A stretch of 64,000 nt of DNA from NCBI GenBank assembly GCA_002730875.1, contig PCBI01000005.1:901191-965190 (forward strand), given 5' to 3'. Each line of letters starts with the position of its first letter. Position 1 is the stretch's first letter. The notes under the pieces are model-generated. The model was not told the origin of the DNA. It did no database searches and saw nothing but the letters and a program-made list of their open reading frames with translations. The position numbers and the translations under genes were made by a program. Below are positions 46,770 through 60,865 of this stretch, one piece after another. This stretch comes from Spirochaetaceae bacterium. GTDB lineage: Bacteria; Spirochaetota; Leptospiria; Leptospirales; Leptonemataceae.

Positions 46770-46878
46770 ACCTACGGCATGGCCGGCGGGGCTGCTGGAT
46801 GCAAACCTTTTTGCATCATAGGGTTGCTACTCCGGACGGGTAAGCCCGGATGCGATGAAAATGGGCCCTGTAATGCGC

Positions 46879-47394
46879 TTAATTGTAGAGCGAATCGTCG
46901 CCGGGCTGGAAGATGGTTCGTGCTCCTGCGTAGGTGTTTTTCCAGTATTTCAGCCTGAGATCAGCCAGACTTACGTTTTTTCCGCTCGAAGGGGCGTGAA
47001 TGAACCTGTAATTCCCTACATAAATGCCCACATGCGAGATTGACTTTCCATCAATGCGAAAGAATACCAGGTCGCCGACTTCCGGTACACGGACAGGCCG
47101 CAGAGCAGTGTACTGGCTGGATGCGGATCGAGGAATGGAATAGCCTGCTTCTTTGTACACGTAACTTGTAAGTCCGGAACAATCGAAGCCCGAAGGCGAG
47201 TAGCCCCCCGGTCTATACGGCACGCCCAGATATTGCTCGGCCAGACGAGCGATTCCGCCGCCGTCATACACAGTGATCCTGCGATGGTTCACTTCGGTGG
47301 TGTCCTCCGGGCTATAGGCCACCACTACGGCCGCTGGTATCAAAAATGCCAGGGCAAGCAGGCTCAATTTCCATCTGGCTCTTCGCTTCATCAT
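46879..47394 (-). CDS. NlpC/P60 (C40) family cell-wall peptidase
   Basis: Signal peptide 'MMKRRARWKLSLLALAFLIPAAVV'; 'GFDCSGLTSYVY' catalytic Cys; 'HVGIYVGNYRFIHA' His. Confidence 0.75.
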   Translation of the reverse strand: MMKRRARWKLSLLALAFLIPAAVVVAYSPEDTTEVNHRRITVYDGGGIARLAEQYLGVPYRPGGYSPSGFDCSGLTSYVYKEAGYSIPRSASSQYTALRPVRVPEVGDLVFFRIDGKSISHVGIYVGNYRFIHAPSSGKNVSLADLRLKYWKNTYAGARTIFQPGDDSLYN

Positions 47395-47527
47395 CTGAGA
47401 GTCCCCATTGCTTTCTATTATCGGCATTTCTGAACCTGCTTTAATACCACAGCCGCAAATTGGTCATTCCAGGGATGGCTGAATCCCGACTGGATCACTA
47501 TTTGGAAAGCCAGAGCCAATCCGAAGT

Positions 47528-48661
47528 TCAGTTTTTTTCTGGATAGAAGCAGGCCACCAGTCGCGAGCCGCTCCGGGGACCGCCCCCTGAATCCGGCTGC
47601 TCGGCGGAGGTCAGGGAATCGGATCGGACCGAACCTGGAATCTCGGATCTCAGCGAACCCGCAAAATCCGATCCAGGCACATCAGCAGAAGTCATGGACG
47701 ATGTCGAATCCATGGACGGAGACGATGCTGAATCCATGGAGTCCAAAGTCTCCAGAGGCGGGATTCTCTGAGAGCAATCCTCTTTTGCCCGGGGACACCG
47801 TGGATGAAAGACGCAGCCCGAGGGCAGATTGGAAGGAGAGGGAACCTCGCCGCCCAGAAGTTTCGGTCGACGGTCCGGGTGGAGGGATGGAATTGCCTCC
47901 ATTAGAGCCCTCGTATACGGATGGGCCGGATTACGGAATAGATCCTCTGTTCGGGCAACTTCCATAACTCGTCCGCCATACATTACGCAAACCCGGTCGC
48001 TCATGTTTCGCACAAGACTTAAATCGTGGGTGATGAAGACCAGGCTCAGCTTCAGTTCCGCCTTTAGTTTTAGCAAGAGCTGAATGATCTGCGCCTGCAC
48101 CGAAACATCCAGGGCACTGGTAACCTCATCGCATACAATCAGTCGGGGTCGCAGACCGACCGCCCGCGCAATTCCGATTCGCTGGCGCTGCCCGCCGGAA
48201 AAGGCATGGGGAAAACGGTCCATGGCGCTTGCCGGGAGGCCTACCAGGTCCAGCAACTCCGTCACTTTCTGTCGGGCGTTGCTGCGATCGCAAAGCCCAT
48301 GGATTCGCATGGGCTCGCTCAGAATCTCAAAGATCGTATGCCGGGGATTCAGCGAAGAATAGGGATCCTGAAAGATAATCTGAAAATCGCTGCGAAATGG
48401 TTTCCAGGAACTCGCCTTGCGAATGTCGATCTCCTGGCCTTCCAGAAATAATCGTCCGGAAGTGGGAAGAGTGAGCCCCAGGATGCTGTTTCCCAGGGTG
48501 CTCTTGCCGCAGCCGGATTCGCCTACAACGGCCAGGACCTCGCCTTCTTCCACGGAAAGGGTCACTCCATCCACAGCTTTCGTCCAGCCCACGGTCTTGC
48601 GAAACAATCCACCGGTAATGGGAAAATGGGTACGGAGATCTTCTACTTTCAGGAGGCTCAT
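47528..48661 (-). CDS. oppF: Peptide ABC transporter ATP-binding protein (OppF/DppF-type) with Ser-rich C-terminal extension
   Basis: Walker A 'GESGCGKST', signature 'FSGGQRQRIGIARA', Walker B 'LIVCDE'; C-terminal oligopeptide-type Cys/His region; ~60-aa S/D-rich tail. Confidence 0.85.
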   Translation of the reverse strand: MSLLKVEDLRTHFPITGGLFRKTVGWTKAVDGVTLSVEEGEVLAVVGESGCGKSTLGNSILGLTLPTSGRLFLEGQEIDIRKASSWKPFRSDFQIIFQDPYSSLNPRHTIFEILSEPMRIHGLCDRSNARQKVTELLDLVGLPASAMDRFPHAFSGGQRQRIGIARAVGLRPRLIVCDEVTSALDVSVQAQIIQLLLKLKAELKLSLVFITHDLSLVRNMSDRVCVMYGGRVMEVARTEDLFRNPAHPYTRALMEAIPSLHPDRRPKLLGGEVPSPSNLPSGCVFHPRCPRAKEDCSQRIPPLETLDSMDSASSPSMDSTSSMTSADVPGSDFAGSLRSEIPGSVRSDSLTSAEQPDSGGGPRSGSRLVACFYPEKN

Positions 48662-49611
48662 ACCCGGGCCTCCTCATACAAAAAACAACAGACCTTCTGA
48701 TTGGGTTCCGGTTCGAATTCGGGCACCGTCTGGGAGCAGGGCGCAAAGGCTTGCTTGCACCGAGGACGAAAGCGGCAACCTTCCGGAAAATCTCCGGCGG
48801 ACGGTACCTGGCCGGGGATAGGATGCAGTTCTTTTCGCTCGTCTACATCGGGCAATGCGCTCATCAGGCCCTGACTGTAGGGATGATACGGTTGTCGTAA
48901 AAAGTCGGCTACATTCCTTTGTTCAATCATATGGCCGGCATACATAACGCCTACGCGATCGGCATACTGAGCGATGAGGCCAATGTTATGCGTGATGAGC
49001 AATACAGCGCATCCTTCCTCTTTTTGTAGTTCTACCAGAAGCTCCATGATCTGGGCCTGCACGGTAACGTCCAGGGCAGTCGTGGGTTCGTCTGCGATAA
49101 TCAAAGACGGGTGCAGGAGCAAGGCCAGAGCAATAACCACTCGCTGAAGCATTCCACCGGATAGCTGATGAGGATAAGATGAAAGAATTCTCTCCGGATC
49201 CGAAAACCCAACGCGACGAAGAACCTGATCCATACGTTCTTCTGGATCTCCATTGAACTCATGAAATTCGAAGAGTTCGGCCAGTTGCTTGCGAATGCTC
49301 AGCAATGGATTGAGCGCGCTGGTAGGTTCCTGGAAAATCATGCTGATTTCGGAACCCCGAATTTGACGCAGTCTTTCGGGCTTCAACGAATGGATGTCTT
49401 CTCCTTTGAAGAAGATGCGACCCTGCAGGAGTTTTCCGCCGGGCTCCGGAAGCATGCCCAGACAGGAGAGCGCAGTGATCGTCTTTCCGCAACCGGACTC
49501 GCCGACGATTCCGTAGATCTGACCCGGCTCAATGGAGAAGCTCACGTTTTCGGTAATACCCGTGGAGCCAATTCCAATGGACAAGTTTTGGACTTCCAGC
49601 ACCGGCTCCAT
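48658..49611 (-). CDS. oppD: Peptide ABC transporter ATP-binding protein (OppD/DppD-type)
   Basis: 'GESGCGKT', 'LSGGMLQRVVIALAL', 'IIADEPTTALD'; ATGA overlap with oppF. Confidence 0.85.
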   Translation of the reverse strand: MEPVLEVQNLSIGIGSTGITENVSFSIEPGQIYGIVGESGCGKTITALSCLGMLPEPGGKLLQGRIFFKGEDIHSLKPERLRQIRGSEISMIFQEPTSALNPLLSIRKQLAELFEFHEFNGDPEERMDQVLRRVGFSDPERILSSYPHQLSGGMLQRVVIALALLLHPSLIIADEPTTALDVTVQAQIMELLVELQKEEGCAVLLITHNIGLIAQYADRVGVMYAGHMIEQRNVADFLRQPYHPYSQGLMSALPDVDERKELHPIPGQVPSAGDFPEGCRFRPRCKQAFAPCSQTVPEFEPEPNQKVCCFLYEEARV

Positions 49612-50027
49612 CAGTTCAGCTCTTTGTAGTACTTATATAGCTCTTCGAGAAGAAACTCGCACACGTACCTATCCCGAATGTTTGGCTCTTTTTGATCCAG
49701 CAGAATTTCTTTTAGACGAAGCAGCTTGTAATTCATCATTTTTTGCTTCGTGGTCTTGTCTTGTGTCTTACTATGAAGCACATACATCGTCAATGTGCCC
49801 GGATCGGAGGTGAGGATTTTGGCTTTCGCATGCACCTCCAGAAATCTGCGTAATTTCTCCAGCAGATCCTCTCTATGCATTGCTTCCACGGGCCCAATAT
49901 GGCCGCACCCATCAGGATTCAAAGTACTTTCCAGAGCTGACTGGCTGCCATTTAAGCTGATGCAGCCAGATATGTCTGAGCAGTCATTTACGACTGCCCG
50001 GCCACTTGCGATTGTCTGGCCATTCAC
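49611..50027 (-). CDS. Small hypothetical protein in a low-GC islet, translationally bridging PP2C paralog and oppD
   Basis: ORF overlaps the PP2C stop (50024-50027) and the oppD start (49611); the segment is visibly AT-richer than its surroundings; true start may be internal (MHREDL). Confidence 0.3.
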   Translation of the reverse strand: MNGQTIASGRAVVNDCSDISGCISLNGSQSALESTLNPDGCGHIGPVEAMHREDLLEKLRRFLEVHAKAKILTSDPGTLTMYVLHSKTQDKTTKQKMMNYKLLRLKEILLDQKEPNIRDRYVCEFLLEELYKYYKELN

Positions 50028-52699
50028 GCCTGGGCGGCCGAGCGAATCAAATCTGACAGCTTTTTAGCCGAAGGGTTTTCCGGCTCCAGGTCCAGGGCCT
50101 TTTCCGCAAGCTCCCGGGCCCGATCCAGATTCCCTGTAACACGATAGCTATCCGCCAGATTGATCAAGTTGGCAATCCTACCCGGTTGAGCTGAGGCCAC
50201 CCTTTCGCCGGTTTGAATGGCCATGTCATGCTGACGCAGATGTTTGTAGCATACGGAAAGCGAAAAGAAAGCGTCGCTGTTATCCGGCTCCAATTCCGCA
50301 AGCTGGCTTAAAGGCTGCACGGCCTCCTGATATCGGTTTTCCATCATCAGGATTCGTCCTTTGAGGCGTAGAGCATTTCCGTGATCGGGATCGATCTCCA
50401 GAAGCTGATCCAGTTTTCTCAGCGCGCCGCTTACATCATTTCCCTGCTGGCCTTCCCGGGCCATACGCAGAAGACTGTCGATATCGCCTATCTTCGATCC
50501 AGAGCCAGTTTCTTGAAAGCCCACTCGCAGGAGGCTCAAATCGTCGGTAACAGTGCCCGTGGCATGGATTCGATCTACAATGGCCAGCAGATCCCCGTCG
50601 GCCTCTTCTACGTACTTCAAAAACAGGGTCTCGTCTTCATTGATGGTGCGAACATCGGCGCCGCCGCTAAGATCCAGGTCGTCCCGTCCGTCGGAGCCGG
50701 CAAAGAGTACGTCCCCGGGTTCCAGCTGGAAACGCTGGACCTGAAACTTGAACTCGGAGGGGGATCCCAGCTTTCGGAGCATCAACTCCTGTTCGATGAA
50801 TGTTGCCTGTCCCTTTCGGTATAGCACCGTCCACGGATGCTCGGCGTTGAAATAGGTCATCATGCCGGTTTCCTCATCGATAACGCCCACAACTGCCGAA
50901 AGCATCATAAGACCGTCAAAGGCCAGAAACAGGTTATGCAATTCTTCATAGGTTTCGGTTAGCCATTCTTCGGGACTAACATTCAAAACTCGGTCATCGC
51001 CAGCGGACCGGGCCAGTATGTTGTTCATCGCCGTTCCCATTACGATGGCGCCGCCGGCTCCCTGCATGGATTTGCCCATGGCATCGCCGTTCATGAATAC
51101 GGTGTGTCGCCGAGCTTGCGGCCCAAGACGCAGGTTTCCGGTAACGCATATATCGCCGCCCAGGTCCGCGGACCGTTCTTTGAAGACAAACTTCTTCTTT
51201 TGCTCCACGTAGAACTCGGTGTTGATTCGATCCGATTTGTTTCGATTGGTCTGCAGCGGTCGTCCAATCAGATAAGTCAGGTAATAGTCTCCGTCCTGCT
51301 GGACTTTCATCTCATGGATCTGCTGCATCTTTTCGGTAACTTCTTTGGTGCGCTCATCGACCTTGAGTTCCAGGTTTTCGGCGTAGTCCTGGAGTTTCTG
51401 TCGGGCGTCCAGAATACTCTTTACCATGTTGTTGAAAGCCCGGGATAGATAGCCGATTTCATCCTCCACCATCACGGGGATCTTGACTTCGAAGTCTCCT
51501 TCTTCTACCTGGCCCACGCCGTCCAGAAGCGAATGCAGCGGTTTTACCAGGCTTCGCGAAAAGAAAATGGGGTAGAGGATCAGAACGCTGAGAACCAGAG
51601 CAAGAGTCAGGATTGCCGTTCCGATCATGGAATCATGGATGAACTGCCTGTATTCTTGATAGCGGTAGCCTACTTCGATGACATCTCCTTGATTTTCGCC
51701 TGCAGGCGGCACGTGGTAGGCTACGTACAGATCGTCTGAGTGCGGTTCCATCTGGCGAAAATGGCGCGCCATAAAGTCCGTGCGTTCGCTTCGCTTTACG
51801 AGCTTTCCCTGGTCCAGGGATTCCAGCGGTTTTGCATATGCCACCGGACTTACCGGTTCCTGGCCGGTTACAACATAGCTCTGGGCCTGGAGGCCATGGA
51901 TACGGTCATAGCTGCGATGAGTCTGCTGTCCGGAGAAAGCGGAAAGGGCCTGGATTGCCAGGAGTAGCGTAACCAGCGAAATCCCCACAATCTTGGTCAT
52001 GAAGCTGGTTCGCTCTACAGTGTTGTTTATGAATACAAGAACAATGGCCGTGTAGCCCAGAAGACTGGTGAGTACATATCCCTGTTGAAAAGTTGAATGG
52101 CTGATGCGGCCGCCGTTGTAGAGAACATTAACGATACCGGGAAGTAGCGTTGGAATGAGCATGGCCACTACCAATTGCCGGGCCGCCCGACGTTCCTTCC
52201 GCTCCATTTTGAAGCTTCGATACGTCAGGACCACCGTGAACCAGAGAATCATCAGAATCATGCCCCGGGCCACCCATGCTCCCATCTCCTGCGGATAATT
52301 GAAAAGTTCGCCCTGGAAGTCAAAGTCCGGACGAGTTTGCAATGCATTAAAATAGAAATGAACTACGAGCGCCAGGCCGAGTGTCAGGCTGGTCCAGAAG
52401 GCTATCCGCGAAGCGCGCGTCTTCTTATTCTCCGGGAAGTGATGAGCAAACTGAATCATGTAGACCAGAGGAATGAAGACAACACCCACCGTTATGAATC
52501 GATGATCGCCGCCCAGCGGTCCAATTACCAGGGCTGACCAGAGATAGCCTACATTGAGGCCAACGGCTCCAAAGAAGAATAGAGTCATGTCCCGGGTATA
52601 TAGCTGTTTCTCTTTCAGTGAAATCAGATACAGCAGAAGTACCAGAGTGTAGAGAGTGCAAACCAGGGTAGCAATTCCCCATTCATTGAAGTAGAGCAT
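50024..52699 (-). CDS. 7TMR-DISM 7-TM receptor / HAMP / PP2C (SpoIIE-type) phosphatase with TPR C-terminus (paralog of 18494..21265)
   Basis: Same architecture; linker and PP2C regions ~60% identical by eye ('PVMVEDEIGYLSRAFNNMVKSILDARQKLQDYAENLE' vs 'PVQVEDEIGFLARSFNSMVRSVQDARQRLQQYAENLE'); 'NGDAMGKSMQGAGG'. Confidence 0.85.
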   Translation of the reverse strand: MLYFNEWGIATLVCTLYTLVLLLYLISLKEKQLYTRDMTLFFFGAVGLNVGYLWSALVIGPLGGDHRFITVGVVFIPLVYMIQFAHHFPENKKTRASRIAFWTSLTLGLALVVHFYFNALQTRPDFDFQGELFNYPQEMGAWVARGMILMILWFTVVLTYRSFKMERKERRAARQLVVAMLIPTLLPGIVNVLYNGGRISHSTFQQGYVLTSLLGYTAIVLVFINNTVERTSFMTKIVGISLVTLLLAIQALSAFSGQQTHRSYDRIHGLQAQSYVVTGQEPVSPVAYAKPLESLDQGKLVKRSERTDFMARHFRQMEPHSDDLYVAYHVPPAGENQGDVIEVGYRYQEYRQFIHDSMIGTAILTLALVLSVLILYPIFFSRSLVKPLHSLLDGVGQVEEGDFEVKIPVMVEDEIGYLSRAFNNMVKSILDARQKLQDYAENLELKVDERTKEVTEKMQQIHEMKVQQDGDYYLTYLIGRPLQTNRNKSDRINTEFYVEQKKKFVFKERSADLGGDICVTGNLRLGPQARRHTVFMNGDAMGKSMQGAGGAIVMGTAMNNILARSAGDDRVLNVSPEEWLTETYEELHNLFLAFDGLMMLSAVVGVIDEETGMMTYFNAEHPWTVLYRKGQATFIEQELMLRKLGSPSEFKFQVQRFQLEPGDVLFAGSDGRDDLDLSGGADVRTINEDETLFLKYVEEADGDLLAIVDRIHATGTVTDDLSLLRVGFQETGSGSKIGDIDSLLRMAREGQQGNDVSGALRKLDQLLEIDPDHGNALRLKGRILMMENRYQEAVQPLSQLAELEPDNSDAFFSLSVCYKHLRQHDMAIQTGERVASAQPGRIANLINLADSYRVTGNLDRARELAEKALDLEPENPSAKKLSDLIRSAAQA

Positions 52700-53324
52700 C
52701 GGAGGCGAAATCTAACCTCGATTAAATCTCAGACAATCGGTTTTCCAGTCCCTGAATGAAAAAATGTGTCTGACTGCTTGCGGTCAAAGTTACGGTGCGT
52801 CGCATTATCTCTGGCGATTCTCAAGCTGTGGCATCCTGTCTGTTACGGCGCCGATTTTTGAAGAGAGGCGCAATAGGTGTCAGCTCTGTTACGGAGAACT
52901 CGGGTAGCCGGGAACCATTCGGCAAATAAAGGGCCCTCGGATTCCTGCACACGGAAGTAAAAAACGAAATCAAGCGTACCTTTTTTGATTTTGGACTTGA
53001 CCGGTTGCGGTAATTTCCGATCTTAAAATAGTGAGTGACGCGTCCCAAATTCAGAGCGTTTTCTCCGGTTCCCTGGTAACCGTGGCAGCTCTAGTTGCGT
53101 CCTCACTACTTCTAGCTTCCTCTCTGCTAGCCGGGCTTCGCCTGGCATAAGTATAACATATTACCGTACCCGTATTCTCCGTCGCCAGATTTACGGACCT
53201 CTTGCGCCCAATGGTCGCATGCATGGGGAATTGAGCGTTTGCAGTTCAGCTTCCGGGTCTTGTGAAGGTTCCGACGGAACGGTCGCTTCAAAAACGGCGA
53301 CCTGAGTCTAATTGAGAGGACATT

Positions 53325-54677
53325 ATGAAAAACAACGAAATCCATCCCGGTTCAAAATACCGACCAGTTGTGCCAGTGGAGCTTCCGGACCGAACGTGGC
53401 CATCGAAGCGAATCGAAGCCGCGCCCCGATTCTGTAGCGTAGATTTGCGCGATGGAAACCAGGCTCTTGTAATTCCCATGGAACCGGAAAAGAAGGCCCG
53501 GATGTTTCGGACGCTGGTCGGCATGGGCTTTAAAGAGATCGAGGCCGGTTTTCCATCGGCATCGGCGCCGGACTTTAATTTTCTGCGATGGCTGGCTACA
53601 TCGGGAGCGGTACCGGAAGATACGTATATCCAGGTATTGAGTCAGGCGCGACAGCATCTAATCGAAAGAAGTTTCGAGTCTATAAGAGGACTGGATAAGG
53701 TAATCTTTCATGTGTACAACAGCACTTCGCCGGCGCAGAGGGAGTACGTATTTCAGAAATCCAGAGAGGAAGTGATTCAAGTCGCGGTGGATGCCGTGCG
53801 TCAGATCAAGACTCTGGCCCGGTCCTTTCCTGGCGAATTTGTTCTGGAGTATTCGCCGGAAAGCTATTCGGCCACCGAGCCGGACTTTGCACTGGAAATT
53901 TGCCACGCAGTAATGGAAGAGTGGGCGCCGTTCGAACCAGGATCTTTGATCTTAAACTTACCATCGACCGTGGAAGTCACCACACCCAACTTGTTCGCCG
54001 ACCAAATTGAATGGTTCTGTCGTAACCTCAACAATCGCAAGGATGTCGTAATCAGCGTCCATCCGCACAATGACCGTGGCACTGCAGTGGCCGCGGCGGA
54101 GATGTCTCTTCTGGCCGGAGCCGATCGATTGGAAGGGACGCTCTTTGGTAACGGCGAAAGAACCGGAAACGTGGATCTGGTGACTGTGGGTCTCAATATG
54201 TTGAGCCAGGGAGTGGATCCGGGCATTGACTTTTCCCACCTTCCGGAAATCAGGCAGGTATACGAGCAAACCACGGGAATGACGGTTCCGCCCAGGCAAC
54301 CCTATGCCGGTGAACTTGTATTTACTGCCTTTTCGGGTTCGCATCAGGATGCCATTCGAAAGTCCCTGAATGCGCGAAAGAAGCGAGGCGATTCGGGGGC
54401 CTGGGATATCCCTTATTTGCCGGTAGACCCCGCCGACATCGGCCGGAGATACGAAAAGTACATTCGAATTAATAGCCAGTCCGGGAAGGGCGGCGTTGCC
54501 TATGTGCTCGAAGATCAGGGTTTGGATCTGAGTTCTATACCAGTACGAGACTTGATGGATTTCGCATCCCTGGTTCAAGCCGAGGCTGAAAAGAAAGGCA
54601 CCGAACTCAGTAGCCTGGAGATTCTGGAGCTCTGGTCCCGGAAGTCATCGAACGCCACAACAGCGGGCCCCGTCTAG
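53325..54677 (+). CDS. leuA: Long-form (LeuA type 2, actinobacterial-like) 2-isopropylmalate synthase homolog lacking the C-terminal regulatory domain
   Basis: 'KYRPVVPVELPDRTWPSKRIEAAPRFCSVDLRDGNQALVIPMEP' closely parallels the M. tuberculosis LeuA N-terminus; HMGL-like barrel with 'HPHNDRGTAVAA'; ends at 450 aa. Confidence 0.75.
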   Translation: MKNNEIHPGSKYRPVVPVELPDRTWPSKRIEAAPRFCSVDLRDGNQALVIPMEPEKKARMFRTLVGMGFKEIEAGFPSASAPDFNFLRWLATSGAVPEDTYIQVLSQARQHLIERSFESIRGLDKVIFHVYNSTSPAQREYVFQKSREEVIQVAVDAVRQIKTLARSFPGEFVLEYSPESYSATEPDFALEICHAVMEEWAPFEPGSLILNLPSTVEVTTPNLFADQIEWFCRNLNNRKDVVISVHPHNDRGTAVAAAEMSLLAGADRLEGTLFGNGERTGNVDLVTVGLNMLSQGVDPGIDFSHLPEIRQVYEQTTGMTVPPRQPYAGELVFTAFSGSHQDAIRKSLNARKKRGDSGAWDIPYLPVDPADIGRRYEKYIRINSQSGKGGVAYVLEDQGLDLSSIPVRDLMDFASLVQAEAEKKGTELSSLEILELWSRKSSNATTAGPV

Positions 54678-54786
54678 GCCCGTCGTTGGCTGCAGCCCTG
54701 GCACTCGCTTCGGGCTACGATAGGCCTGGAACGTAGAGGTCAGTGCGGCGGAACCTGCCAGACGGAGGGCGAACCTTGGCCACAGG

Positions 54787-54828
54787 CCACGGAGCTTAGC
54801 CATACGGCCACGGAGCTTAGCCATACGG
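54787..54828. repeat. Perfect 21-bp tandem duplication (CCACGGAGCTTAGCCATACGG x 2)
   Basis: Read directly in the convergent leuA/oppC intergenic region. Confidence 0.9.
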
Positions 54829-54849
54829 CGGTCAGCGCGGCGCCAGAGC

Positions 54850-55881
54850 TCAGGGATCATGATCCTGATATTTAGGATCAAACGCTTCGCGCGCCCCTTC
54901 GCCTATGAAGGTGGCCATGAGCAGAGTAAAAAACAGCGCCAGAACGGTGCTAATGGCAATCCAGGGAAAATCCAGATTGTCCAATCCCTGCTGGAGTAAT
55001 TCGCCCCAGGATGGAGTGGGAGGAGGCAGGCCAAAACCCAGGAAATCCAGCGCTGTGAGCGAACTAATGCCTGCGATCAAAGTGAACGGCAGAATTGTAA
55101 TCAATGGAGTCAGCGCATTGGGAAGGATCTGGCCCATAAAAATGCGAACCGAGCCCAGGCCGCTGGCCCGGGCGGCCTGCACATAGGTTTGACCGCGAAG
55201 CTTGAAGAATTCTCCGCGCATATAGTAAGAAAGGCCCACCCAGCTAAAGAGTGACATGACCACAAGGAGCATCCAGAAGTTCTGGCCGTAGATTGAGCCC
55301 AGCAGAATGACCACGTACAGAAAGGGCAGGGCGGACCAGACTTCTATGATTCGCTGCATGACGATATCGGTGCGTCCTCCCAGGTAACCCTGGATGCCGC
55401 CGATGATTACTCCGAGAAGACCGCTAAGAACGGTGAGACTCAGCGCAAATAGCATACAGATGCGAAAGCCGTAGAGCAGACGGGCAAACACATCCCGGCC
55501 AAGGCTGTCGGTGCCCAGCCAGTGTCGTAAGGAAGGCGGATGCGGCGGGGGGTCCTGGTCGGCCAGGTCGGCCTCCAGGGGATTGAATGGCACCGGCGGA
55601 AAGACGGCCCATCCCCTTTCTTCGAAGTCTGCGGTTTGTCTTAGAGCGCGGTAGTCGGCTTCGGTTCCGTACTGCTGGCCCAGTTCCTTGCCCGAGTAAA
55701 AGAACAGAAGCGGAAAGTAGGTACTTCCGTCGTAGCCCATGACAATGGGTCGGTTCTCGGCGATGCATTCACTGAACAGAGATAGGCCAAAGAGCGAACT
55801 CAGCAAGATAAGCGAAAAGTAGGCCCGCCGGATGCTGCGAAATCGTCGCCATCGCTCTATTGTCAGATCCGAGAATCTCAC
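54850..55881 (-). CDS. oppC: Peptide ABC transporter permease (OppC/DppC-type)
   Basis: 'HWLGTDSLGRDVFARLLYG' and the EAA-loop region; 6 TM. Confidence 0.85.
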   Translation of the reverse strand: MRFSDLTIERWRRFRSIRRAYFSLILLSSLFGLSLFSECIAENRPIVMGYDGSTYFPLLFFYSGKELGQQYGTEADYRALRQTADFEERGWAVFPPVPFNPLEADLADQDPPPHPPSLRHWLGTDSLGRDVFARLLYGFRICMLFALSLTVLSGLLGVIIGGIQGYLGGRTDIVMQRIIEVWSALPFLYVVILLGSIYGQNFWMLLVVMSLFSWVGLSYYMRGEFFKLRGQTYVQAARASGLGSVRIFMGQILPNALTPLITILPFTLIAGISSLTALDFLGFGLPPPTPSWGELLQQGLDNLDFPWIAISTVLALFFTLLMATFIGEGAREAFDPKYQDHDP

Positions 55882-56891
55882 TGCAGTCGAATCCTGGGAT
55901 CAATATACGTATAGAGCAGATCGGAAAACAGGCGTCCGAACAGAGTTAGGATAGAAGATATCAGAATGATTCCCATGACTACATTGTAGTCCCGGCTCAC
56001 GATGGAGTTCCAGACCAGAAGCCCCATGCCGTCGATATCGAATACCTTTTCGATGAGCAGTGCGCCGGCAAAGACGAGAGTGAAAATCTCGCTCATTCGT
56101 GTGGCAATAGGTATAAGAGCATTTCGCAAGGCATGGCGAAACAGCGCCGTTTTGGGAAGCATGCCTTTCAGGATCGCGGTTCGCATGTAGTCTTTCTTCA
56201 GTTCTTCCAGGATGCCATTCTTCATGAGCATGGTTAAGAAAGCGAATTCGCCTACCATGTAGCAAACCATGGGAAGGATCATATGGTGCAGGAAGTCCAA
56301 CACCTTTGCCCCGGGCGAAAGAAGTTCGAAGTTATCGGATACGACGCCGCGCAATGGAAAAAGGTCCAGAAAGGTACCCCCGGCGAAAAAAATGATCAGC
56401 AAGATACCCAATGCGTAACCGGGAATAACGTATCCAGCGAAAATAACAATTGAGCTGGCCGTGTCAAAAAGGGAGCGATGCTTTCGGGCCTTCCACATAC
56501 CCAGAGGAATGCACACAGCGTAAGAAAGTAGAAAAGACGTTAGGCCGAAGAACAGCGAAATGGGCATTCGCTCCAGGATCACTTCCAGCACCGGCCGATT
56601 ATAGGTGTAAGATTCGCCCAGATCGCCGGTGAGGGCGCTTCCCAGCCAGGTAAAATAGCGTACATAGGCAGGCTGATCAAAGCCGAAGTTTCGCTTGATG
56701 TTTTCGATTTCCGCTTCGGAGATGGCTGCGGCCGGATTGGCGCCCTGGGCGGCGCTGGCTGCCCGAATGTTGGCAATCATCTGCTCCACGGGTCCGCCCG
56801 GCACGAATTGGATCAGCACAAAACAGGCCACGGTGATCCCCAGAATCGTGGGGATCATGTAAAGTAGTCTTCTTAATACGTAGGTCTGCAC
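55878..56891 (-). CDS. oppB: Peptide ABC transporter permease (OppB/DppB/YejB-type)
   Basis: 'MQTYVLRRLLYMIPTILGITVACFVLIQFVPGGP' canonical OppB N-terminus; ATGA overlap with oppC. Confidence 0.85.
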   Translation of the reverse strand: MQTYVLRRLLYMIPTILGITVACFVLIQFVPGGPVEQMIANIRAASAAQGANPAAAISEAEIENIKRNFGFDQPAYVRYFTWLGSALTGDLGESYTYNRPVLEVILERMPISLFFGLTSFLLSYAVCIPLGMWKARKHRSLFDTASSIVIFAGYVIPGYALGILLIIFFAGGTFLDLFPLRGVVSDNFELLSPGAKVLDFLHHMILPMVCYMVGEFAFLTMLMKNGILEELKKDYMRTAILKGMLPKTALFRHALRNALIPIATRMSEIFTLVFAGALLIEKVFDIDGMGLLVWNSIVSRDYNVVMGIILISSILTLFGRLFSDLLYTYIDPRIRLQ

Positions 56892-56974
56892 AGTTCTATG
56901 GGCTTTCGGGAACCAGTATTTCGAACGTTAATCGAACATCATGGAGTGGCATTGCATGCATGAAACCTATGCGA

Positions 56975-58759
56975 TCAAGGGCCGGTGTAGTCTACGTTGG
57001 TTGCCGGTTTTTTCAGAGCCTGGTTGTTTTTTCGTGCTTCTTCCAGGGTCTTTTCCTGGTCCGGGTCAACCCACCAGTAGGTATTCACCGAATCGTCGGA
57101 GCCGTACTTCCCCAGCGGGTTTTCCGGAACGCCGTACCGGTTCCAGTAAAGCATACGATGGGAATCGGCCTGCCAGAGTAGAACGTAGGGATGAATCTCG
57201 TACAGGCGGCGGTCCAGTTGCTTGAGGATCTCTGTTCTTTCGGCCGGGCTACGGGCTACCTTGTAGGACTCGATTAAAGCATCCACTTTTGCGTCTTTTA
57301 CGCCGGCCAGGTTGATGCTTCCTTTGTCGCCGGCCGTTTTGGAGTGCCACATGGGTTCCGGATCCTTCAGCCGGCCGGCGCCCCAGTTGATCCAGTAGAG
57401 GTCAAAGTCGAACTCGTCCAGACGCTTTCGCGCTGTACTCAAACTGACCTGGTCGATGACCGCTTCAATGCCAACGCTCTTTAGATCCTGGAGGTAGATG
57501 TTAATGTGACGCAGGTCGGAACCGCTCTGCAAGAATCGAAGGCTCAGGACCTGGCCGTCTTTTTCGAGGAGTCCTTTTGCATTTGGTTCATAGCCGGCTT
57601 CGGTGAGTAGTTTTCGCGCTTTTTCCGGATCATATTTGATCACCGGTACTGCCGGATTAACGTATCCCGGATACAAATCCGGAATATATGAATTCAACAG
57701 AACGTACTCCTCATACATGAGCTTCTTGTTCATCAGCGACCGATTGAGCAGAAGCGACAAAGCCTCTCTTACTCTTTCGTCCTGGAACTTCTCGCGCCTT
57801 AGATTGATAACAAATCCTTGAAAACCACGGGGTGTTCGGTTCTGTATTTTTTGTCGGGCCACCCAGCCTTTCTGCACTTCTTCCAGATGGGTTTTGATGG
57901 CCCAGATAGAGGCGGTGTGTACCGGGAAATAATCGAACTCGCCTTTCTTGAACGCTTCCAGGGCTTTGTTTCTGTCTTCAATAAACCTGTAGCGGATGTA
58001 GTCGAAGTTGTATTTGCCACTGTTGAACTTGAGTTTTCGACCCCACCAATCGCCCCGACGCTTCAGGAGCACAAATCGATTCACTTTGTTCTGAACTACT
58101 TGATACGGGCCGCTGGTAACCTCAAACTCGTTTACATCGTTGAAGTCTTTGCCTTTCAGCGAGTGGGCGGGTAGCGCCACCAGGCTTCCGGCATCCCAGA
58201 AGTTCTTCCAGTGCTTCTCTTTCGCAGTGATGCGAACAGTCCGCTCATCCACGGCTTCCGGTCGCTCAAATCGACTCAGGGATACACGAAACACAGCGGT
58301 ATTGTGCTCTTTTTTCATCATCGTATCGTAGTAGAAAACAATGTCCTGGGCGGTGATGGGCTTTCCGTCGCTCCAGGTAGCTTGCTCGCGAAGCTTGAAC
58401 GTGAAGGTCATTCCGTCGGGACTGGTTTCCCAGGATTCGGCCAGGATTCCCACCGGCTCCTGCCTGGTTGTATGCATGGTGATCAACGGCTCAAACTGCA
58501 TGTAGGTGATTTCTGCTGATAGTGTATTGGTATCCAGCCAGTAGTTCAGGGACTTCGGGTACGAAGCGCCCCATACATTGTTTACCCCACCTCGGACGGC
58601 AGAAGGGTCGGCCATGGGATCGGTTTCTCCCACGGGCAATCCTTCCAGGGGCACGTCCTCTACGGGCTCCAGTTGAATCTCCTTTTCTTCTCCGCAATGG
58701 ATGGAAAAAAGGGTGGCTAGTAGTATTGCAGGGATCAGACTAGATTTCAGACCTTTCAT
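56975..58759 (-). CDS. ABC transporter substrate-binding lipoprotein, SBP family 5 (OppA/YejA-like)
   Basis: Signal with 'FSIHCGEE' lipobox-like Cys; 594 aa; family-5 SBP architecture. Confidence 0.8.
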   Translation of the reverse strand: MKGLKSSLIPAILLATLFSIHCGEEKEIQLEPVEDVPLEGLPVGETDPMADPSAVRGGVNNVWGASYPKSLNYWLDTNTLSAEITYMQFEPLITMHTTRQEPVGILAESWETSPDGMTFTFKLREQATWSDGKPITAQDIVFYYDTMMKKEHNTAVFRVSLSRFERPEAVDERTVRITAKEKHWKNFWDAGSLVALPAHSLKGKDFNDVNEFEVTSGPYQVVQNKVNRFVLLKRRGDWWGRKLKFNSGKYNFDYIRYRFIEDRNKALEAFKKGEFDYFPVHTASIWAIKTHLEEVQKGWVARQKIQNRTPRGFQGFVINLRREKFQDERVREALSLLLNRSLMNKKLMYEEYVLLNSYIPDLYPGYVNPAVPVIKYDPEKARKLLTEAGYEPNAKGLLEKDGQVLSLRFLQSGSDLRHINIYLQDLKSVGIEAVIDQVSLSTARKRLDEFDFDLYWINWGAGRLKDPEPMWHSKTAGDKGSINLAGVKDAKVDALIESYKVARSPAERTEILKQLDRRLYEIHPYVLLWQADSHRMLYWNRYGVPENPLGKYGSDDSVNTYWWVDPDQEKTLEEARKNNQALKKPATNVDYTGP

Positions 58760-58789: not shown

Positions 58790-60865
58790 GTGTCAAACAT
58801 GCATTTTAAATTTCGCGTACCGATACTACTATTGGGAGCCCGTTTTTTTTGCGCTGTCCATGGCCGGGGGCGGCAAGACCTTTCGCCGCCGCATCTGCGT
58901 CGCTCGAGACGCGGTTGTCGTTCGTTGGTCCGGGCCCTGTCGCAGCCATCTCTTGTGCTTCTCTTTCTGATCCTGCTCCCCGTCCTACACTGCAATCGTC
59001 CGCTGAATCATCCCTATCCGGAAACCGTTGGCAATAACTGGCATTTAATCGCCATGTCATCGGAGCCCTCCACAATGGATCCGGTGCGCATGGCCGATGG
59101 CCCTTCCTACACCGTGGCATCCAACCTGGCCATCACGCCTTTTCGGTATGCCTATCTGAAGCGGCCCATTCAAATGGAGCCCCTTCTGGCGAGAGAGATA
59201 CCCTCAATCAAGCCGGGCGCTTTAGACGGCCAGCCCGTCCACTTTTTTGACCTGAATCTGGACACCCATTACTACGCGCCCGTAGAAGAATGTCTCAAGG
59301 ATTCGCATCACGATGGTACCGGCCGTCCGGTATTGGCGGCGGATCTGGAATTGAATCTTAAGCGCAGCGCCGATCCTGCCAACGAAGCATTTATGATATC
59401 GCTGCTTTCAAAGAGTATTGTAGGTTTCGCCGATTATAGCGAATATCTGCAACTGGCGCGACAGGAAAAAGACATTGGCTCTTTGAGCGCCTCGGAGCAG
59501 GCCCGAGTCCTGGCGGAACTCTATTCGCGGCCCATTGATGGGGTAAAGGTTCTGGATGATGATACTCTCCGGATCTATTTAAATAGCAGCAGCGATCGGA
59601 TTCTCTATTTCTTTGCCATGGTGAGTGCGGCCCCCATTACGGAGGCCTGCTGGAGAGAATTCAACAGCCGCGATAAGGACCAGAACGCTCTGGAAAGAAC
59701 AATGATTTCCTCCGGCCCGTATTATTTGAAGAGCTGGGAACCAAGGGATCGCATTGTTCTGGAAAGAAACACTCTGTATCGTGATCGCTTTCCGGCCCTT
59801 CCGGAGGACTCCAGCCAGTGGCCGGATGGCCTGCAGAAACATCCGGAAAGAGCCCGAGAAATGTCTTCGCTTGAGGGAAAACCTCTTCCTTTGACCGATC
59901 GCGTAATCTTCTATCTTATCCAGTCCGGATCCACTGTATGGACCCTCTTCGAGCAGGGGTATCAAGATCGAGTAGCCCTTACGAAGGACTCTTACGAAGG
60001 AGTCCTGGATGGCGAAGAACTCCGGCCGGAGTACAGGGAGCGCGGGGTTCGACTGAGCACCGAGGCGGAGCTTACTACATTCGGTTGGATTTTCAATCTT
60101 CGCGACCCCGTCGTAGGTCGCAGCGTTGAATTGCGAAAAGCCATTCGATGCATCATTGATCCCCGGGAATTGATCAATCGGTTCTACGAAGGGCGAGCCA
60201 TGGTCGCTTACGGATTGCTTCCCCCAGGTATGGAAGGTTTCGAACCGGAAAAAGAGGCCCGGAAATGCACGAAAGGGTACGTCGACAATCTGCTATCCAG
60301 GGCCGGGTATGCGAAAGGCATTGATCCGGAAACCGGAAAGCCCCTGGTTCTGCGATTGATCGATGTGCCCCGGCCCGCCAGCGCAAGTTTCCATAGTTAT
60401 CTTGTGGAGCGCATTGCGAAGCTCGGCATTCGCCTGGAAGTGGATCTGTTCGATGCGCCTACATATTTCGAAAAGAGAATGAAGGGCAAATTTCAGATCA
60501 CCACCTGGGGATGGGGCGCCGATTATCCCGATCCGCAGAATTTCTTTCAACTATTCTACGGCGGAAATGCCGGAACGCCTTACAACGAGGCGCATTTTCA
60601 GAATGCCGCCTTTGACCAGGCCTATCGCGCACTGGACGAAGCCAAAGATCCTGCTCGTCGCCAGCAGTTGATAGATCGCATGAATTCAATTCTGGAAGAG
60701 GAAGTGCCCGTACTTCTGTTGTTTCACAGGATAAACTATGGTATTTCGCAACCCTGGCTTTCGGTCTACGAACCTCATCCCATGGGATACAATTTGCTAC
60801 AGTATCGGGGAGTAGATTCAGAGCAGAGGGATAGGTTCCAGAGCGAATACAACTCCATTTTCTGA
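58790..60865 (+). CDS. Second SBP family 5 peptide-binding protein, divergent from the first
   Basis: 691 aa; signal-like 'MHFKFRVPILLLGARFFCAVHG' and a second hydrophobic segment; family-5 SBP core; start uncertain. Confidence 0.75.
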   Translation: MSNMHFKFRVPILLLGARFFCAVHGRGRQDLSPPHLRRSRRGCRSLVRALSQPSLVLLFLILLPVLHCNRPLNHPYPETVGNNWHLIAMSSEPSTMDPVRMADGPSYTVASNLAITPFRYAYLKRPIQMEPLLAREIPSIKPGALDGQPVHFFDLNLDTHYYAPVEECLKDSHHDGTGRPVLAADLELNLKRSADPANEAFMISLLSKSIVGFADYSEYLQLARQEKDIGSLSASEQARVLAELYSRPIDGVKVLDDDTLRIYLNSSSDRILYFFAMVSAAPITEACWREFNSRDKDQNALERTMISSGPYYLKSWEPRDRIVLERNTLYRDRFPALPEDSSQWPDGLQKHPERAREMSSLEGKPLPLTDRVIFYLIQSGSTVWTLFEQGYQDRVALTKDSYEGVLDGEELRPEYRERGVRLSTEAELTTFGWIFNLRDPVVGRSVELRKAIRCIIDPRELINRFYEGRAMVAYGLLPPGMEGFEPEKEARKCTKGYVDNLLSRAGYAKGIDPETGKPLVLRLIDVPRPASASFHSYLVERIAKLGIRLEVDLFDAPTYFEKRMKGKFQITTWGWGADYPDPQNFFQLFYGGNAGTPYNEAHFQNAAFDQAYRALDEAKDPARRQQLIDRMNSILEEEVPVLLLFHRINYGISQPWLSVYEPHPMGYNLLQYRGVDSEQRDRFQSEYNSIF

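What the first reader, a model, noticed from the sequence alone, without database searches (positions are those of the whole stretch)
47528..58759. Peptide ABC transporter operon split by a 7TMR-DISM phosphatase paralog and an oppositely oriented leuA-like gene; the phosphatase is translationally chained to oppDF
oppA-like SBP (56975..58759), oppB and oppC run contiguously on the minus strand with ATGA overlaps. The ATPase genes oppD/oppF lie 5 kb further on. In between are the plus-strand leuA-like gene and, co-directional with the transporter, a second 7TM/HAMP/PP2C gene. The stop of that PP2C gene overlaps a small ORF (50024-50027), and that small ORF overlaps the oppD start (49611). The phosphatase is thus in an unbroken overlap chain with oppD and oppF. 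This looks like an insertion into an ancestral oppABCDF operon that put the ATPases under co-expression with a 7TM signalling phosphatase. It could be a functional association, for example peptide sensing linked to transport.
Basis: partly seen in the sequence, partly recalled or inferred. Interest (0 to 1): 0.6.

Follow-up and report, generated by a model that had tools for sequence, protein, structure and literature searches.

The report
Split peptide ABC transporter locus
The five genes of one peptide-type ABC importer really are split into two units by unrelated genes in a marine Leptospira-like clade, but the overlap chain tying a membrane phosphatase to the transporter ATPases comes from a recent ~5 kb deletion plus an over-extended ORF call, so this is ordinary genome shuffling and not a new signalling-transport system.

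Summary
All the ORFs exist at the stated coordinates. SBP1-oppB-oppC (54850-58759) and oppD-oppF (47528-49611) are one orthologous PepT-family importer. All five proteins are 51-66% identical to operons in other phyla that keep A-B-C-D(-x-)F together. The split by a leuA-like gene and a HAMP/PP2C/TPR membrane phosphatase is shared by every related lineage in which the oppC-to-PP2C stretch could be read.

The claimed PP2C -> small ORF -> oppD overlap chain does not hold. In eight related lineages, genes lie between the PP2C and the small gene. The usual set is EAL, MCP and a HIBADH-like dehydrogenase on the opposite strand. The window lineage is nested inside this clade and lost about 5 kb. The left breakpoint falls in the last codons of the PP2C.

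The small gene is a real 89-aa gene starting at ATG 49880, not the 138-aa ORF from GTG 50027. The 143 nt upstream of it is non-coding and contains an invariant palindromic motif. Remote homologues of the small protein sit in contexts with no opp genes.

The "7TMR-DISM" label fails Pfam testing. leuA and the PP2C show no compositional anomaly.

Verdict: an ordinary split transporter locus, with the overlap an accident of the deletion. A conserved structured leader upstream of leuA is a side lead.

The parts
59075..60865 (+). Second SBP_bac_5 substrate-binding protein (SBP2), divergent from SBP1. The gene call gives 596 aa. The mechanical ORF from GTG 58790 gives 691 aa.
   Evidence: Pfam SBP_bac_5 E = 8.9e-45. 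Gene call in L001. Conserved at 66-67% in L002/L003.
56975..58759 (-). SBP1, an oppA-like family-5 substrate-binding protein. The N-terminus looks like a lipoprotein signal (by eye).
   Evidence: SBP_bac_5 E = 1.2e-73. N-terminal sequence MKGLKSSLIPAILLATLFSIHC. 55% and 51% identical to the SBPs of the L087 and L089 operons.
55878..56891 (-). Permease oppB. Its best NCBIfam match is YejB-like, below the curated cut-off.
   Evidence: BPD_transp_1 + BPD_transp_1_N. NF011712 scores 279 bits against a cut-off of 445. 83-nt gap to the SBP1 stop.
54850..55881 (-). Permease oppC. Its best NCBIfam match is YejE-like, below the curated cut-off. Its GTG start overlaps the oppB stop (GTGA).
53325..54677 (+). 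leuA-like 2-isopropylmalate synthase, 450 aa. It has the catalytic barrel and subdomain but no C-terminal regulatory LeuA_dimer domain. It is on the opposite strand and interrupts the transporter.
   Evidence: HMGL-like + IPMS_D2 only. NF002991 scores 678 bits against a cut-off of 455, matching profile positions 3-433 of 550. 444-451 aa and 83-86% identical in relatives.
52988..53182 (+). Conserved non-coding block 145-335 nt upstream of the leuA start. It is a candidate structured 5' leader of leuA, and the strand is inferred from G-U pairs.
   Evidence: Alignment of 5 lineages and coordinates. RNAalifold gives 29 pairs, 8 with double compensatory changes, and an invariant 7-bp hairpin with a G-U pair on the + strand. 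No Rfam match.
50024..52699 (-). Membrane PP2C (SpoIIE-type) phosphatase, 891 aa. It has 8 TM + a 106-aa outside loop + 1 TM, HAMP at 379-429, PP2C at 531-727 and TPR at 740-890. The last 6 codons and the stop were created by the deletion junction.
   Evidence: C-terminal comparison: relatives end ...EL[IM]G*, the window ends ...DLIRSAAQA*.
49933..50044 (-). Deletion junction. This is 111 nt with no detectable homologue in relatives. It stands where relatives carry about 5 kb (EAL, MCP and HIBADH-like genes on the opposite strand).
   Evidence: Homology to L002 stops at 50045 and resumes at 49932. Local alignments score no better than shuffles. Block genes identified.
49919..49932 (-). Invariant motif GGAAAGTACTTTGA, containing the perfect 10-bp palindrome AAAGTACTTT, 39-52 nt upstream of the small gene's ATG. 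It is a candidate operator or promoter element of the small-oppD-oppF unit.
   Evidence: Identical in all 7 lineages aligned. Exactly one copy in each clade locus and none in the other 78 loci. Unique in the window. It is non-coding, because an in-frame TAA follows it in L084.
49611..49880 (-). Small gene, 89 aa, predicted three-helix protein from an unannotated family. Its stop shares one base with the oppD start. The 138-aa ORF 49611-50027 is an over-extension of this gene.
   Evidence: The ATG is conserved and the protein is 79-99% identical across the clade. Substitutions by codon position are 276/149/871, and differing codons are 709 synonymous against 330 non-synonymous. Model pLDDT is 72. 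No Pfam, NCBIfam or PDB match.
48658..49611 (-). oppD-like ATPase, 317 aa.
   Evidence: ABC_tran + oligo_HPY. 83-87% identical within the clade, 77% in L090, about 60% to Fibrobacteres and other operons.
47528..48661 (-). oppF-like ATPase, 377 aa. It overlaps oppD by ATGA. The C-terminal ~70 aa are not conserved; relatives are 319-347 aa.
   Evidence: tblastn alignments end at residue 305-306. Gene lengths.
46879..47427 (-). NlpC/P60 peptidase gene 100 nt downstream of oppF, conserved there in the related loci.
   Evidence: Pfam NLPC_P60 E = 6e-29. Synteny.

Best explanation
The region encodes one PepT-family (Opp/Dpp/Yej-type) ABC importer whose genes lie in two transcription units: SBP1-oppB-oppC and small-oppD-oppF. 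A second SBP gene is divergent from SBP1. In the common ancestor of a marine Leptospiraceae-like clade, unrelated genes came to lie between the permease and ATPase genes: a short leuA-like gene on the opposite strand, a membrane HAMP-PP2C-TPR phosphatase, a block on the opposite strand (EAL, MCP, HIBADH-like) and a small 89-aa gene.

The window's lineage then deleted about 5 kb. The deletion ran from the last codon of the PP2C gene to just upstream of a conserved palindromic motif in front of the small gene. This gave the PP2C a new 6-codon tail and a new stop codon. By chance it also left an open frame from a GTG at that stop into the small gene. The 'overlap chain' is that accident.

Shown:
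- Gene identities.
- Orthology of the five transporter parts.
- The arrangement in relatives.
- The nesting of the window inside the clade.
- The real extent of the small gene.

Inferred:
- The transporter works as an ordinary two-permease, two-ATPase importer assembled from separately transcribed halves.
- small-oppDF keeps its own promoter or operator, because the 52 nt retained in the window is the whole intergenic region in L084.
- PP2C transcription may now read through into small-oppDF, since no terminator is seen. That would be a recent by-product with no evidence of selection.
For: - Gene content.
- One transporter: SBP1, B, C, D and F are 55/65/63/61/60% identical to L087 and 51/61/63/60/66% to L089. 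Both are operons holding all five parts. The window has no second B, C, D or F.
- Split shared by relatives: oppC | leuA(-) | PP2C is seen in L002, L003, L079-L081, L102 and L121.
- Genes between the PP2C and the small gene in relatives: EAL-MCP-HIBADH in L002, L003, L079, L080 and L081. EAL lies after the PP2C in L102. MCP-HIBADH lies before the small gene in L090. DUF1554 + HIBADH occur in L084.
- Polarity: NJ trees of the PP2C and oppD place the window inside the clade, with L084 and L090 branching earlier.
- Breakpoints.
- Small gene limits and coding signal.
- Not an assembly artefact: the same neighbourhood was seen in 24 contigs read.
- No compositional anomaly: GC is 0.528 (PP2C) and 0.534 (leuA), GC3 is 0.611 and 0.585, both within the range of neighbouring genes.
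- No terminator-like site or unusual RNA structure between the PP2C and the small gene.
Against: - No transcript data exist, so the transcription units are inferred from strand, spacing and comparison.
- No remnant of the deleted block could be detected in the 111-nt junction. Deletion versus insertion therefore rests on parsimony over two distance trees built from single proteins.
- The rest of the genome could not be searched for other orphan oppDF or oppBC sets.
- The consensus scan found no sigma-70-like promoter in front of the small gene.
- The neighbourhood of the PP2C and the opp genes is conserved within the clade, which a sceptic could read as weak evidence of linkage.
Confidence: 0.8

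Rival explanations
1. The PP2C sensor phosphatase is functionally integrated with the transporter, for example peptide sensing coupled to the ATPases. It would be co-translated with them through a small coupling ORF.
For: In the window the PP2C, the small gene, oppD and oppF are co-directional with no terminator-like site between them. The PP2C lies between the two transporter halves in every related lineage where that stretch could be read.
Against: Eight related lineages have opposite-strand genes between the PP2C and the small gene. The overlap depends on an unconserved GTG extension. The PP2C stop codon itself is new. PP2C homologues at 54% identity or less have no co-directional opp operon beside them. 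In L084 the small gene and oppD are 117 nt apart.
Confidence: 0.06
2. The 5-kb EAL-MCP-HIBADH block is an insertion in the relatives, and the window keeps the ancestral state with the PP2C directly upstream of small-oppDF.
For: No remnant of the block is detectable in the window junction. The trees are simple NJ trees of single proteins.
Against: The HIBADH(-)|small(+) adjacency is present in the two earliest-branching lineages, L084 and L090, as well as in all others. L090 also has MCP. Four of five relatives share the PP2C ending EL[IM]G*, while the window has a unique 6-residue tail. Insertion would need several independent events at the same site.
Confidence: 0.08
3. oppD-oppF serve a different transporter than SBP1-oppB-oppC, so there are two incomplete systems that happen to be neighbours.
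For: The permeases score best against YejB/YejE models, whereas the ATPases are separate Dpp/Opp-like proteins and not a fused YejF. The rest of the genome was not searchable.
Against: All five parts show the same level of identity (51-66%) to two operons that hold all five. The closest non-clade oppD homologues are in exactly those operons. There is only one set in the 64-kb window. The two halves stay 5-10 kb apart in every related lineage where both could be read.
Confidence: 0.07
4. The 89-aa protein is a dedicated accessory or regulatory subunit of the OppDF ATPases, which would explain its tight coupling to oppD.
For: It lies immediately upstream of oppD in all clade lineages. It overlaps oppD by 1-4 nt, or lies within 4 nt of it, in 6 of 7. 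It is under purifying selection. An invariant palindrome lies upstream.
Against: Remote homologues (22 hits in 1.84 billion representatives) sit beside a GH31 glycosidase, DUF2237, a MotB-like gene or radical-SAM/aminotransferase genes, never beside opp genes, in the four contexts read. The outgroup operons L087 and L089 lack it. L084 has a 117-nt gap.
Confidence: 0.1

Closest known systems
Opp/Dpp-type peptide/nickel ABC importers (PepT family, TC 3.A.1.5), e.g. E. coli OppABCDF and DppABCDF
   Same: It has a family-5 SBP, two BPD_transp_1 permeases, and two ATPases each with an ABC_tran domain and the oligo_HPY C-terminal domain. oppD/oppF and oppB/oppC are overlap-coupled.
   Different: The genes are not contiguous. 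About 5 kb of unrelated genes (10 kb in relatives) separates C from D. A second divergent SBP gene is present. No NCBIfam equivalog cut-off is reached, so the substrate is unassigned.
YejABEF (E. coli microcin C / peptide importer) and YejBEF-YepA of Agrobacterium tumefaciens (muropeptide recycling, PMC9790009)
   Same: The best NCBIfam hits for both permeases are YejB and YejE (279 and 332 bits). An NlpC/P60 cell-wall peptidase gene follows oppF in the related loci. That would fit a cell-wall peptide substrate, but this is speculation.
   Different: The scores are below the curated cut-offs (445 and 439). The ATPase is two separate proteins, not the fused two-domain YejF. No functional evidence exists.
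Membrane-bound HAMP-PP2C phosphatases of partner-switching pathways (RsbU/SpoIIE type; SiaA of Pseudomonas aeruginosa)
   Same: It has a HAMP domain followed by a SpoIIE/PP2C domain above the Pfam cut-off. There is a partial match to the SiaA model over the TM-HAMP region. Asp residues in motifs I take to be the PP2C metal-binding motifs are invariant in 22 homologues.
   Different: It has an 8-TM + loop + TM sensor module with no Pfam assignment and a C-terminal TPR domain. No STAS-domain substrate or kinase gene was looked for or seen next to it. The SiaA score is 53 bits against a cut-off of 700.
   Same: It is a multi-pass membrane sensor fused to a PP2C output, in a Leptospira-related organism where true 7TMR-DISM-SpoIIE proteins also occur (one is seen in L133).
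   Different: There is no match to either 7TMR-DISM model even at E = 10. There is no N-terminal extracellular domain. It has nine predicted TM segments and a HAMP linker.
Other interrupted opp operons found here: L087 (hybrid histidine kinase between oppD and oppF) and L089 (two VWA genes between oppC and oppD)
   Same: They are orthologous transporters (51-66% identity) whose operons are also broken by unrelated genes at or near the C/D boundary.
   Different: The inserted genes are different and the events independent. L087 keeps everything on one strand with overlapping stops and starts.

Membership tests
PepT-family (Opp/Dpp/Nik/Yej) ABC importer | Family-5 substrate-binding protein (SBP_bac_5) | tested here: met
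   PF00496 E = 1.2e-73 for 56975-58759, and E = 8.9e-45 for the second SBP.
PepT-family (Opp/Dpp/Nik/Yej) ABC importer | Two BPD_transp_1 permeases | tested here: met
   PF00528 scores 98 and 113 bits against a cut-off of 26.4.
PepT-family (Opp/Dpp/Nik/Yej) ABC importer | Two ATPases carrying the oligo_HPY C-terminal domain | tested here: met
   ABC_tran + PF08352 in both 317-aa and 377-aa proteins.
PepT-family (Opp/Dpp/Nik/Yej) ABC importer | Assignment to a substrate-specific equivalog (OppD/F, DppD/F, NikD/E, GsiA, YejB/E/F) | tested here: not met
   Every NCBIfam hit is below its curated cut-off. Examples are PRK11308 at 360 against 408, PRK15021 at 332 against 439, and PRK15133 at 279 against 445.
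YejABEF | Fused two-domain ATPase YejF | tested here: not met
   There are two separate single-domain ATPase genes. YejF model hits cover only one half each.
7TMR-DISM receptor | 7TMR-DISM_7TM (PF07695) and an extracellular DISMED domain (PF07696) | tested here: not met
   No hit at E <= 10 for residues 1-381 of the PP2C or for the paralogue's N-terminus. The precomputed Pfam lists of 119 homologues lack them.
PP2C / SpoIIE-type serine phosphatase | PP2C catalytic domain with conserved metal-binding aspartates | tested here: met
   PF07228 scores 100.6 bits against a cut-off of 25. D516, D539, D670, D719 and D720 are invariant in 22 homologues. Their assignment as metal ligands comes from my own knowledge of PP2C motifs, not from a test here.
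PP2C / SpoIIE-type serine phosphatase | Phosphatase activity on a phospho-STAS or other substrate | not testable with these tools
   No biochemical data exist, and no partner gene was identified nearby.
2-isopropylmalate synthase (LeuA) | HMGL-like catalytic barrel plus the post-catalytic subdomain | tested here: met
   PF00682 scores 246 bits and PF22615 scores 112 bits. NF002991 scores 678 bits against a cut-off of 455.
2-isopropylmalate synthase (LeuA) | C-terminal LeuA_dimer regulatory (leucine feedback) domain | tested here: not met
   The protein ends at profile position 433 of 550, and there is no PF08502 hit. The length is conserved at 444-451 aa in relatives.
Translationally coupled gene chain PP2C -> small ORF -> oppD -> oppF | Stop/start overlap between the PP2C and the small ORF, conserved in orthologous loci | tested here: not met
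   It is absent in all 8 related lineages, where 1.9-5 kb of other genes intervene. The GTG extension is unconserved.
Translationally coupled gene chain PP2C -> small ORF -> oppD -> oppF | Stop/start overlap between the small gene and oppD, and between oppD and oppF | tested here: met
   The small/oppD junctions are TGATG (window), ATGA (L079, L080) and TAATG (L081, L003). L090 has a 4-nt gap and L084 a 117-nt gap. oppD/oppF is ATGA.

The most novel reading that the evidence does not exclude
In this one lineage the 5-kb deletion may have fused a membrane PP2C sensor gene to the small-oppD-oppF unit. The transporter's ATPases would then be transcribed both from their own palindrome-controlled promoter and by read-through from the phosphatase promoter. 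That would be a very young, naturally occurring operon fusion coupling a signalling gene to an importer. Separately, the 89-aa protein and the invariant AAAGTACTTT palindrome could be a new small regulator/operator pair controlling the ATPase half of a split transporter.
Probability: 0.15. Interest if true: 0.4.

Novelty: new member of a known kind. Interest (0 to 1): 0.18.

Why it matters
It matters mainly as a caution. An overlap chain read from a single genome suggested a signalling-transport module, but comparison with eight related lineages shows that a recent deletion created it, including the PP2C's stop codon. The locus is still a clean natural example of how an ABC importer operon tolerates being split between its permease and ATPase genes. 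Interruption near the C/D boundary happened independently in at least three lineages: this clade, L087 and L089. It also shows how a deletion can create a new potential co-transcription unit. The by-products are probably the more useful leads: an unannotated 89-aa protein family, an invariant palindromic operator candidate, a conserved structured leader in front of a regulatory-domain-less leuA, and a membrane-anchored sigma-54 activator sharing the PP2C's sensor module.

Tried and rejected
- A remnant of the deleted block in the 111-nt junction: local alignments against six relatives scored at shuffle level.
- A sigma-70 promoter or intrinsic terminator between the PP2C and the small gene: none found, and the counts for the whole region are below the shuffle expectation.
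- RNA structure in that gap: z = -0.96, not significant.
- A second copy of the palindromic motif upstream of SBP1 or elsewhere, which would have indicated co-regulation of the two halves: none in the window.
- Rfam on the whole window and on the leuA-PP2C intergenic region: only two tRNAs elsewhere, nothing in the region.
- Function of the small protein:
  - Pfam and NCBIfam gave nothing.
  - A PDB sequence profile search gave nothing.
  - The AlphaFold model (pLDDT 72) searched with Foldseek against PDB had a best E of 3.1, which is meaningless.
- A sigma-54 reading of the conserved TGGG...GTGGAAGC upstream of the small gene was considered by eye and dropped. The GC of the -12 element is not conserved in L084, and the element would sit 3 nt from the ATG.
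- A metagenome scan with an 18-mer of the leuA leader: 39 hits, of which only 3 are genuine (L102, L120, L121). The rest match only 18-23 nt and have no related genes. The covariation sample could not be enlarged.
- Horizontal transfer of leuA and the PP2C, judged from composition: no GC, GC3 or codon-usage anomaly.

Full report
**Observation**

Pfam and NCBIfam confirm the gene types:
- oppF-like, 47528-48661, and oppD-like, 48658-49611. Each has ABC_tran + oligo_HPY.
- A 138-aa ORF, 49611-50027, with no family match.
- An 891-aa protein, 50024-52699, with HAMP, SpoIIE/PP2C and TPR domains.
- A plus-strand leuA-like gene, 53325-54677, with HMGL-like + IPMS_D2.
- Two BPD_transp_1 permeases, 54850-55881 and 55878-56891.
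- An SBP_bac_5 protein, 56975-58759.
- A second, divergent SBP_bac_5 gene just upstream (59075-60865 by the gene call).

The junction details are only partly as described:
- oppD/oppF overlap by ATGA.
- oppB/oppC overlap by GTGA.
- SBP1 and oppB are 83 nt apart.
- The small ORF stop shares one base with the oppD start.
- The overlap with the PP2C stop exists only if the small ORF starts at GTG 50027.

The "7TMR-DISM" label is not supported. Neither 7TMR-DISM model matches, even at E = 10. Hydropathy gives eight TM segments, a 106-aa outside loop, a ninth TM and then HAMP. A paralogue with the same architecture does exist at 18494-21265, at 34% identity.

**Source**

The exact PP2C protein occurs on marine metagenome contigs, for example a 1.05-Mb Tara Oceans contig. 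All 24 contigs that were read show the same neighbourhood, so the arrangement is not an assembly artefact. Sources name the organism Spirochaetaceae or Leptospiraceae bacterium.

**Synteny around the PP2C**

A scan of one genome per species with a profile of 22 PP2C homologues returned 77 loci. I mapped all window proteins onto them with tblastn.
- Only the two closest genomes share the opp context: L002 at 83% PP2C identity and L003 at 81%.
- PP2C homologues at 54% identity or less, including cultured Leptospira species, have no co-directional opp operon beside them. The only opp-like hits there are weak or on the opposite strand (oppD 27% in L007; oppF 49% / oppD 39% about 8 kb away in L010).

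In L002 and L003 the order is SBP2 | SBP1-oppB-oppC | leuA(-) | PP2C, then about 5 kb, then small-oppD-oppF-NlpC/P60-YjgF. The 5 kb holds three opposite-strand genes: a GGDEF/EAL protein, a methyl-accepting chemotaxis protein, and a 3-hydroxyisobutyrate-dehydrogenase-like (HIBADH-like) enzyme.

Looking up homologues of the small protein and of oppD added more lineages:
- L079, L080 and L081 have the same three-gene block.
- L084 has DUF1554(+) and HIBADH(-) between the PP2C and the small gene, plus a 117-nt gap between the small gene and oppD.
- L090 has MCP(-)-HIBADH(-) | small-oppD-oppF.
- L102 has EAL convergent with the PP2C.

So every related lineage has at least one opposite-strand gene between the PP2C and the small gene. 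Only the window lacks them.

**Polarity and breakpoints**

NJ trees of the PP2C and oppD, rooted with outgroups, put the window inside the clade. L084 and L090 branch earlier. Loss in the window lineage is therefore the parsimonious reading.

Nucleotide homology to L002 runs through the PP2C up to window 50045 and resumes at 49932. Four of five relatives end the PP2C with ...EL[I/M]G*. The window reads ...DLIRSAAQA*. The left breakpoint therefore lies in the last codon or two of the PP2C, and the present stop codon (50024-50026) is new. The right breakpoint lies immediately 5' of an invariant motif (below). The 111 nt between the breakpoints matches nothing in the relatives' block beyond shuffle level. 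The net loss is about 4.97 kb (5057 nt in L079 against 91 nt here).

**The small gene**

Its conserved part begins at the ATG at 49880. The upstream 32-49 codons of the 138-aa ORF are not conserved. In L084 an in-frame TAA closes that frame (alignment). Most of the related sequences are called at 89 aa, with a few calls of 92-107 aa.

The 89-aa gene is real. Summed over pairs of seven lineages, differences by codon position are 276, 149 and 871. Differing codons are 709 synonymous against 330 non-synonymous.

So the PP2C stop and the small gene are separated by 143 nt of non-coding DNA. Within it, GGAAAGTACTTTGA (49919-49932) is identical in all seven aligned lineages and contains the perfect palindrome AAAGTACTTT. 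It occurs exactly once per clade locus and in no other locus, and it is unique in the window. In L084 the whole intergenic region between the HIBADH gene and the small gene is the 52 nt that the window retains. The small-oppDF unit has therefore probably kept its own control region. This is an inference.

No terminator-like site or notable RNA structure lies between the PP2C and the small gene. Read-through from the PP2C is possible in this lineage, but nothing suggests it is selected.

**Is the small protein an Opp accessory?**

A word-indexed search found only clade members. A full HMM search of 1.84 billion representatives found 22 hits, including about 20 remote clusters of 85-110 aa with shared motifs. 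The four contexts I could read contain no opp genes. The neighbours are a GH31 glycosidase, DUF2237, a MotB-like gene, and radical-SAM/aminotransferase genes. The outgroup opp operons lack the protein. Its position before oppD is therefore specific to this clade. The model is a three-helix protein (pLDDT 72) with no meaningful PDB match.

**Are the two halves one transporter?**

Outside the clade, the best oppD homologues are about 60% identical and come from other phyla. Two contexts were read:
- L087 is SBP-B-C-D-[hybrid histidine kinase]-F on one strand.
- L089 (Fibrobacteres) is SBP-B-C | two opposite-strand VWA genes | D-F.

All five window proteins match these sets at a uniform level. 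Identities are 55/65/63/61/60% to L087 and 51/61/63/60/66% to L089. The window has no other B, C, D or F gene. This supports one orthologous five-part importer and an ancestrally contiguous operon. It also shows that interruption near the C/D boundary has happened independently elsewhere.

The permeases score best against YejB/YejE models, but below their cut-offs. The ATPases are separate proteins, not a fused YejF. I therefore file the system only at PepT-family level. The conserved NlpC/P60 gene after oppF and the known muropeptide role of YejBEF-YepA (PMC9790009) make a cell-wall peptide substrate a speculative lead.

**Composition**

leuA and the PP2C have the same GC, GC3 and codon usage as their neighbours. 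There is no sign of recent foreign origin.

**Conclusion**

The split of the transporter is real, is shared by the related lineages, and is plausibly derived from a contiguous operon. The distinctive claim, a phosphatase translationally chained to oppDF, is not supported. It results from a lineage-specific deletion that even created the PP2C's stop codon, combined with extending the small ORF to an unconserved GTG.

**Side observations**

The leuA-PP2C intergenic region holds a conserved 195-nt block (52988-53182). It keeps its distance to leuA even where a ~900-nt insert separates it from the PP2C. RNAalifold predicts 29 pairs, 8 of them with compensatory double changes. Several G-U pairs, including one in an invariant hairpin, are possible only on the leuA strand. 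Rfam has no match. Only five lineages are available, since the metagenome scan added no new ones. It remains a lead for a leuA leader RNA.

The sigma-54 activator at 16029-18494 shares the PP2C-type N-terminal membrane sensor module.

Noticed in passing
window 52988-53182 (+ strand inferred), upstream of leuA at 53325: A conserved ~195-nt non-coding block lies in the 625-nt leuA-PP2C intergenic region. It includes an invariant hairpin, GCCGGGC-TTC-GCCTGGC, and lineage-specific compensatory hairpins in the middle. G-U pairs fit only the leuA strand. There is no Rfam match. It is a candidate novel leader or riboswitch for a leuA that lacks its feedback domain.
   Followed up: partly
window 49919-49932 (- strand): The invariant motif GGAAAGTACTTTGA, with the perfect 10-bp palindrome AAAGTACTTT, lies 39-52 nt upstream of the small gene. 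It is identical in 7 lineages, occurs once per clade locus, and is unique in the window. It is a candidate operator.
   Followed up: partly
window 49611-49880 (-); P0250-P0269: The 89-aa protein belongs to an unannotated family of about 20 clusters at 50% identity (85-110 aa) with motifs FLExHxKTKI and INYKLLRLxERLL. The family is found in varied gene contexts.
   Followed up: partly
window 16029-18494 (-), overlapping the paralogous PP2C at 18494-21265: The sigma-54 enhancer-binding protein (821 aa) has an N-terminal region (about aa 43-466) that is 25-27% identical to the multi-TM + HAMP sensor module of both PP2C proteins. It would be a membrane-anchored bEBP. Its start overlaps the stop of the paralogous PP2C.
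   Followed up: no
L087 8001-12092: In an orthologous opp operon (oppD 61% identical), a 695-aa PAS-HisKA-HATPase-REC hybrid histidine kinase sits between oppD and oppF, with overlapping stops and starts on both sides. This is a better case of a signalling gene embedded in an opp operon than the window itself.
   Followed up: no
L089 3287-7716: In a Fibrobacteres orthologue, oppABC and oppDF are separated by two opposite-strand VWA_2 genes of about 690 aa. This is an independent split at the same C/D boundary.
   Followed up: no
window 53325-54677 (+): The leuA-like protein is 450 aa and lacks the C-terminal LeuA_dimer regulatory domain. This short form is conserved (444-451 aa) across the clade.
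   Followed up: partly
window 47528-47740 (3' end of oppF): oppF is 377 aa here against 319-347 aa in relatives. The last ~70 residues have no counterpart, since alignments stop at residue 305-306.
   Followed up: no
window 54786-54827: A 21-nt direct tandem repeat, CCACGGAGCTTAGCCATACGG x2, lies in the gap between the convergent leuA and oppC genes.
   Followed up: no
window 46314-47427 (-): NlpC/P60 peptidase and YjgF/RidA-like genes follow oppF on the same strand in the window and in the related loci that extend that far (one gene call, L079, lacks the NlpC/P60 annotation). This is a possible link of the importer to cell-wall peptide turnover, which is speculative.
   Followed up: no
L133 1-1946: A genuine 7TMR-DISMED2 + 7TMR-DISM_7TM + SpoIIE protein occurs near a remote homologue of the small protein. 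This shows that the Pfam models do detect true members in related organisms.
   Followed up: no
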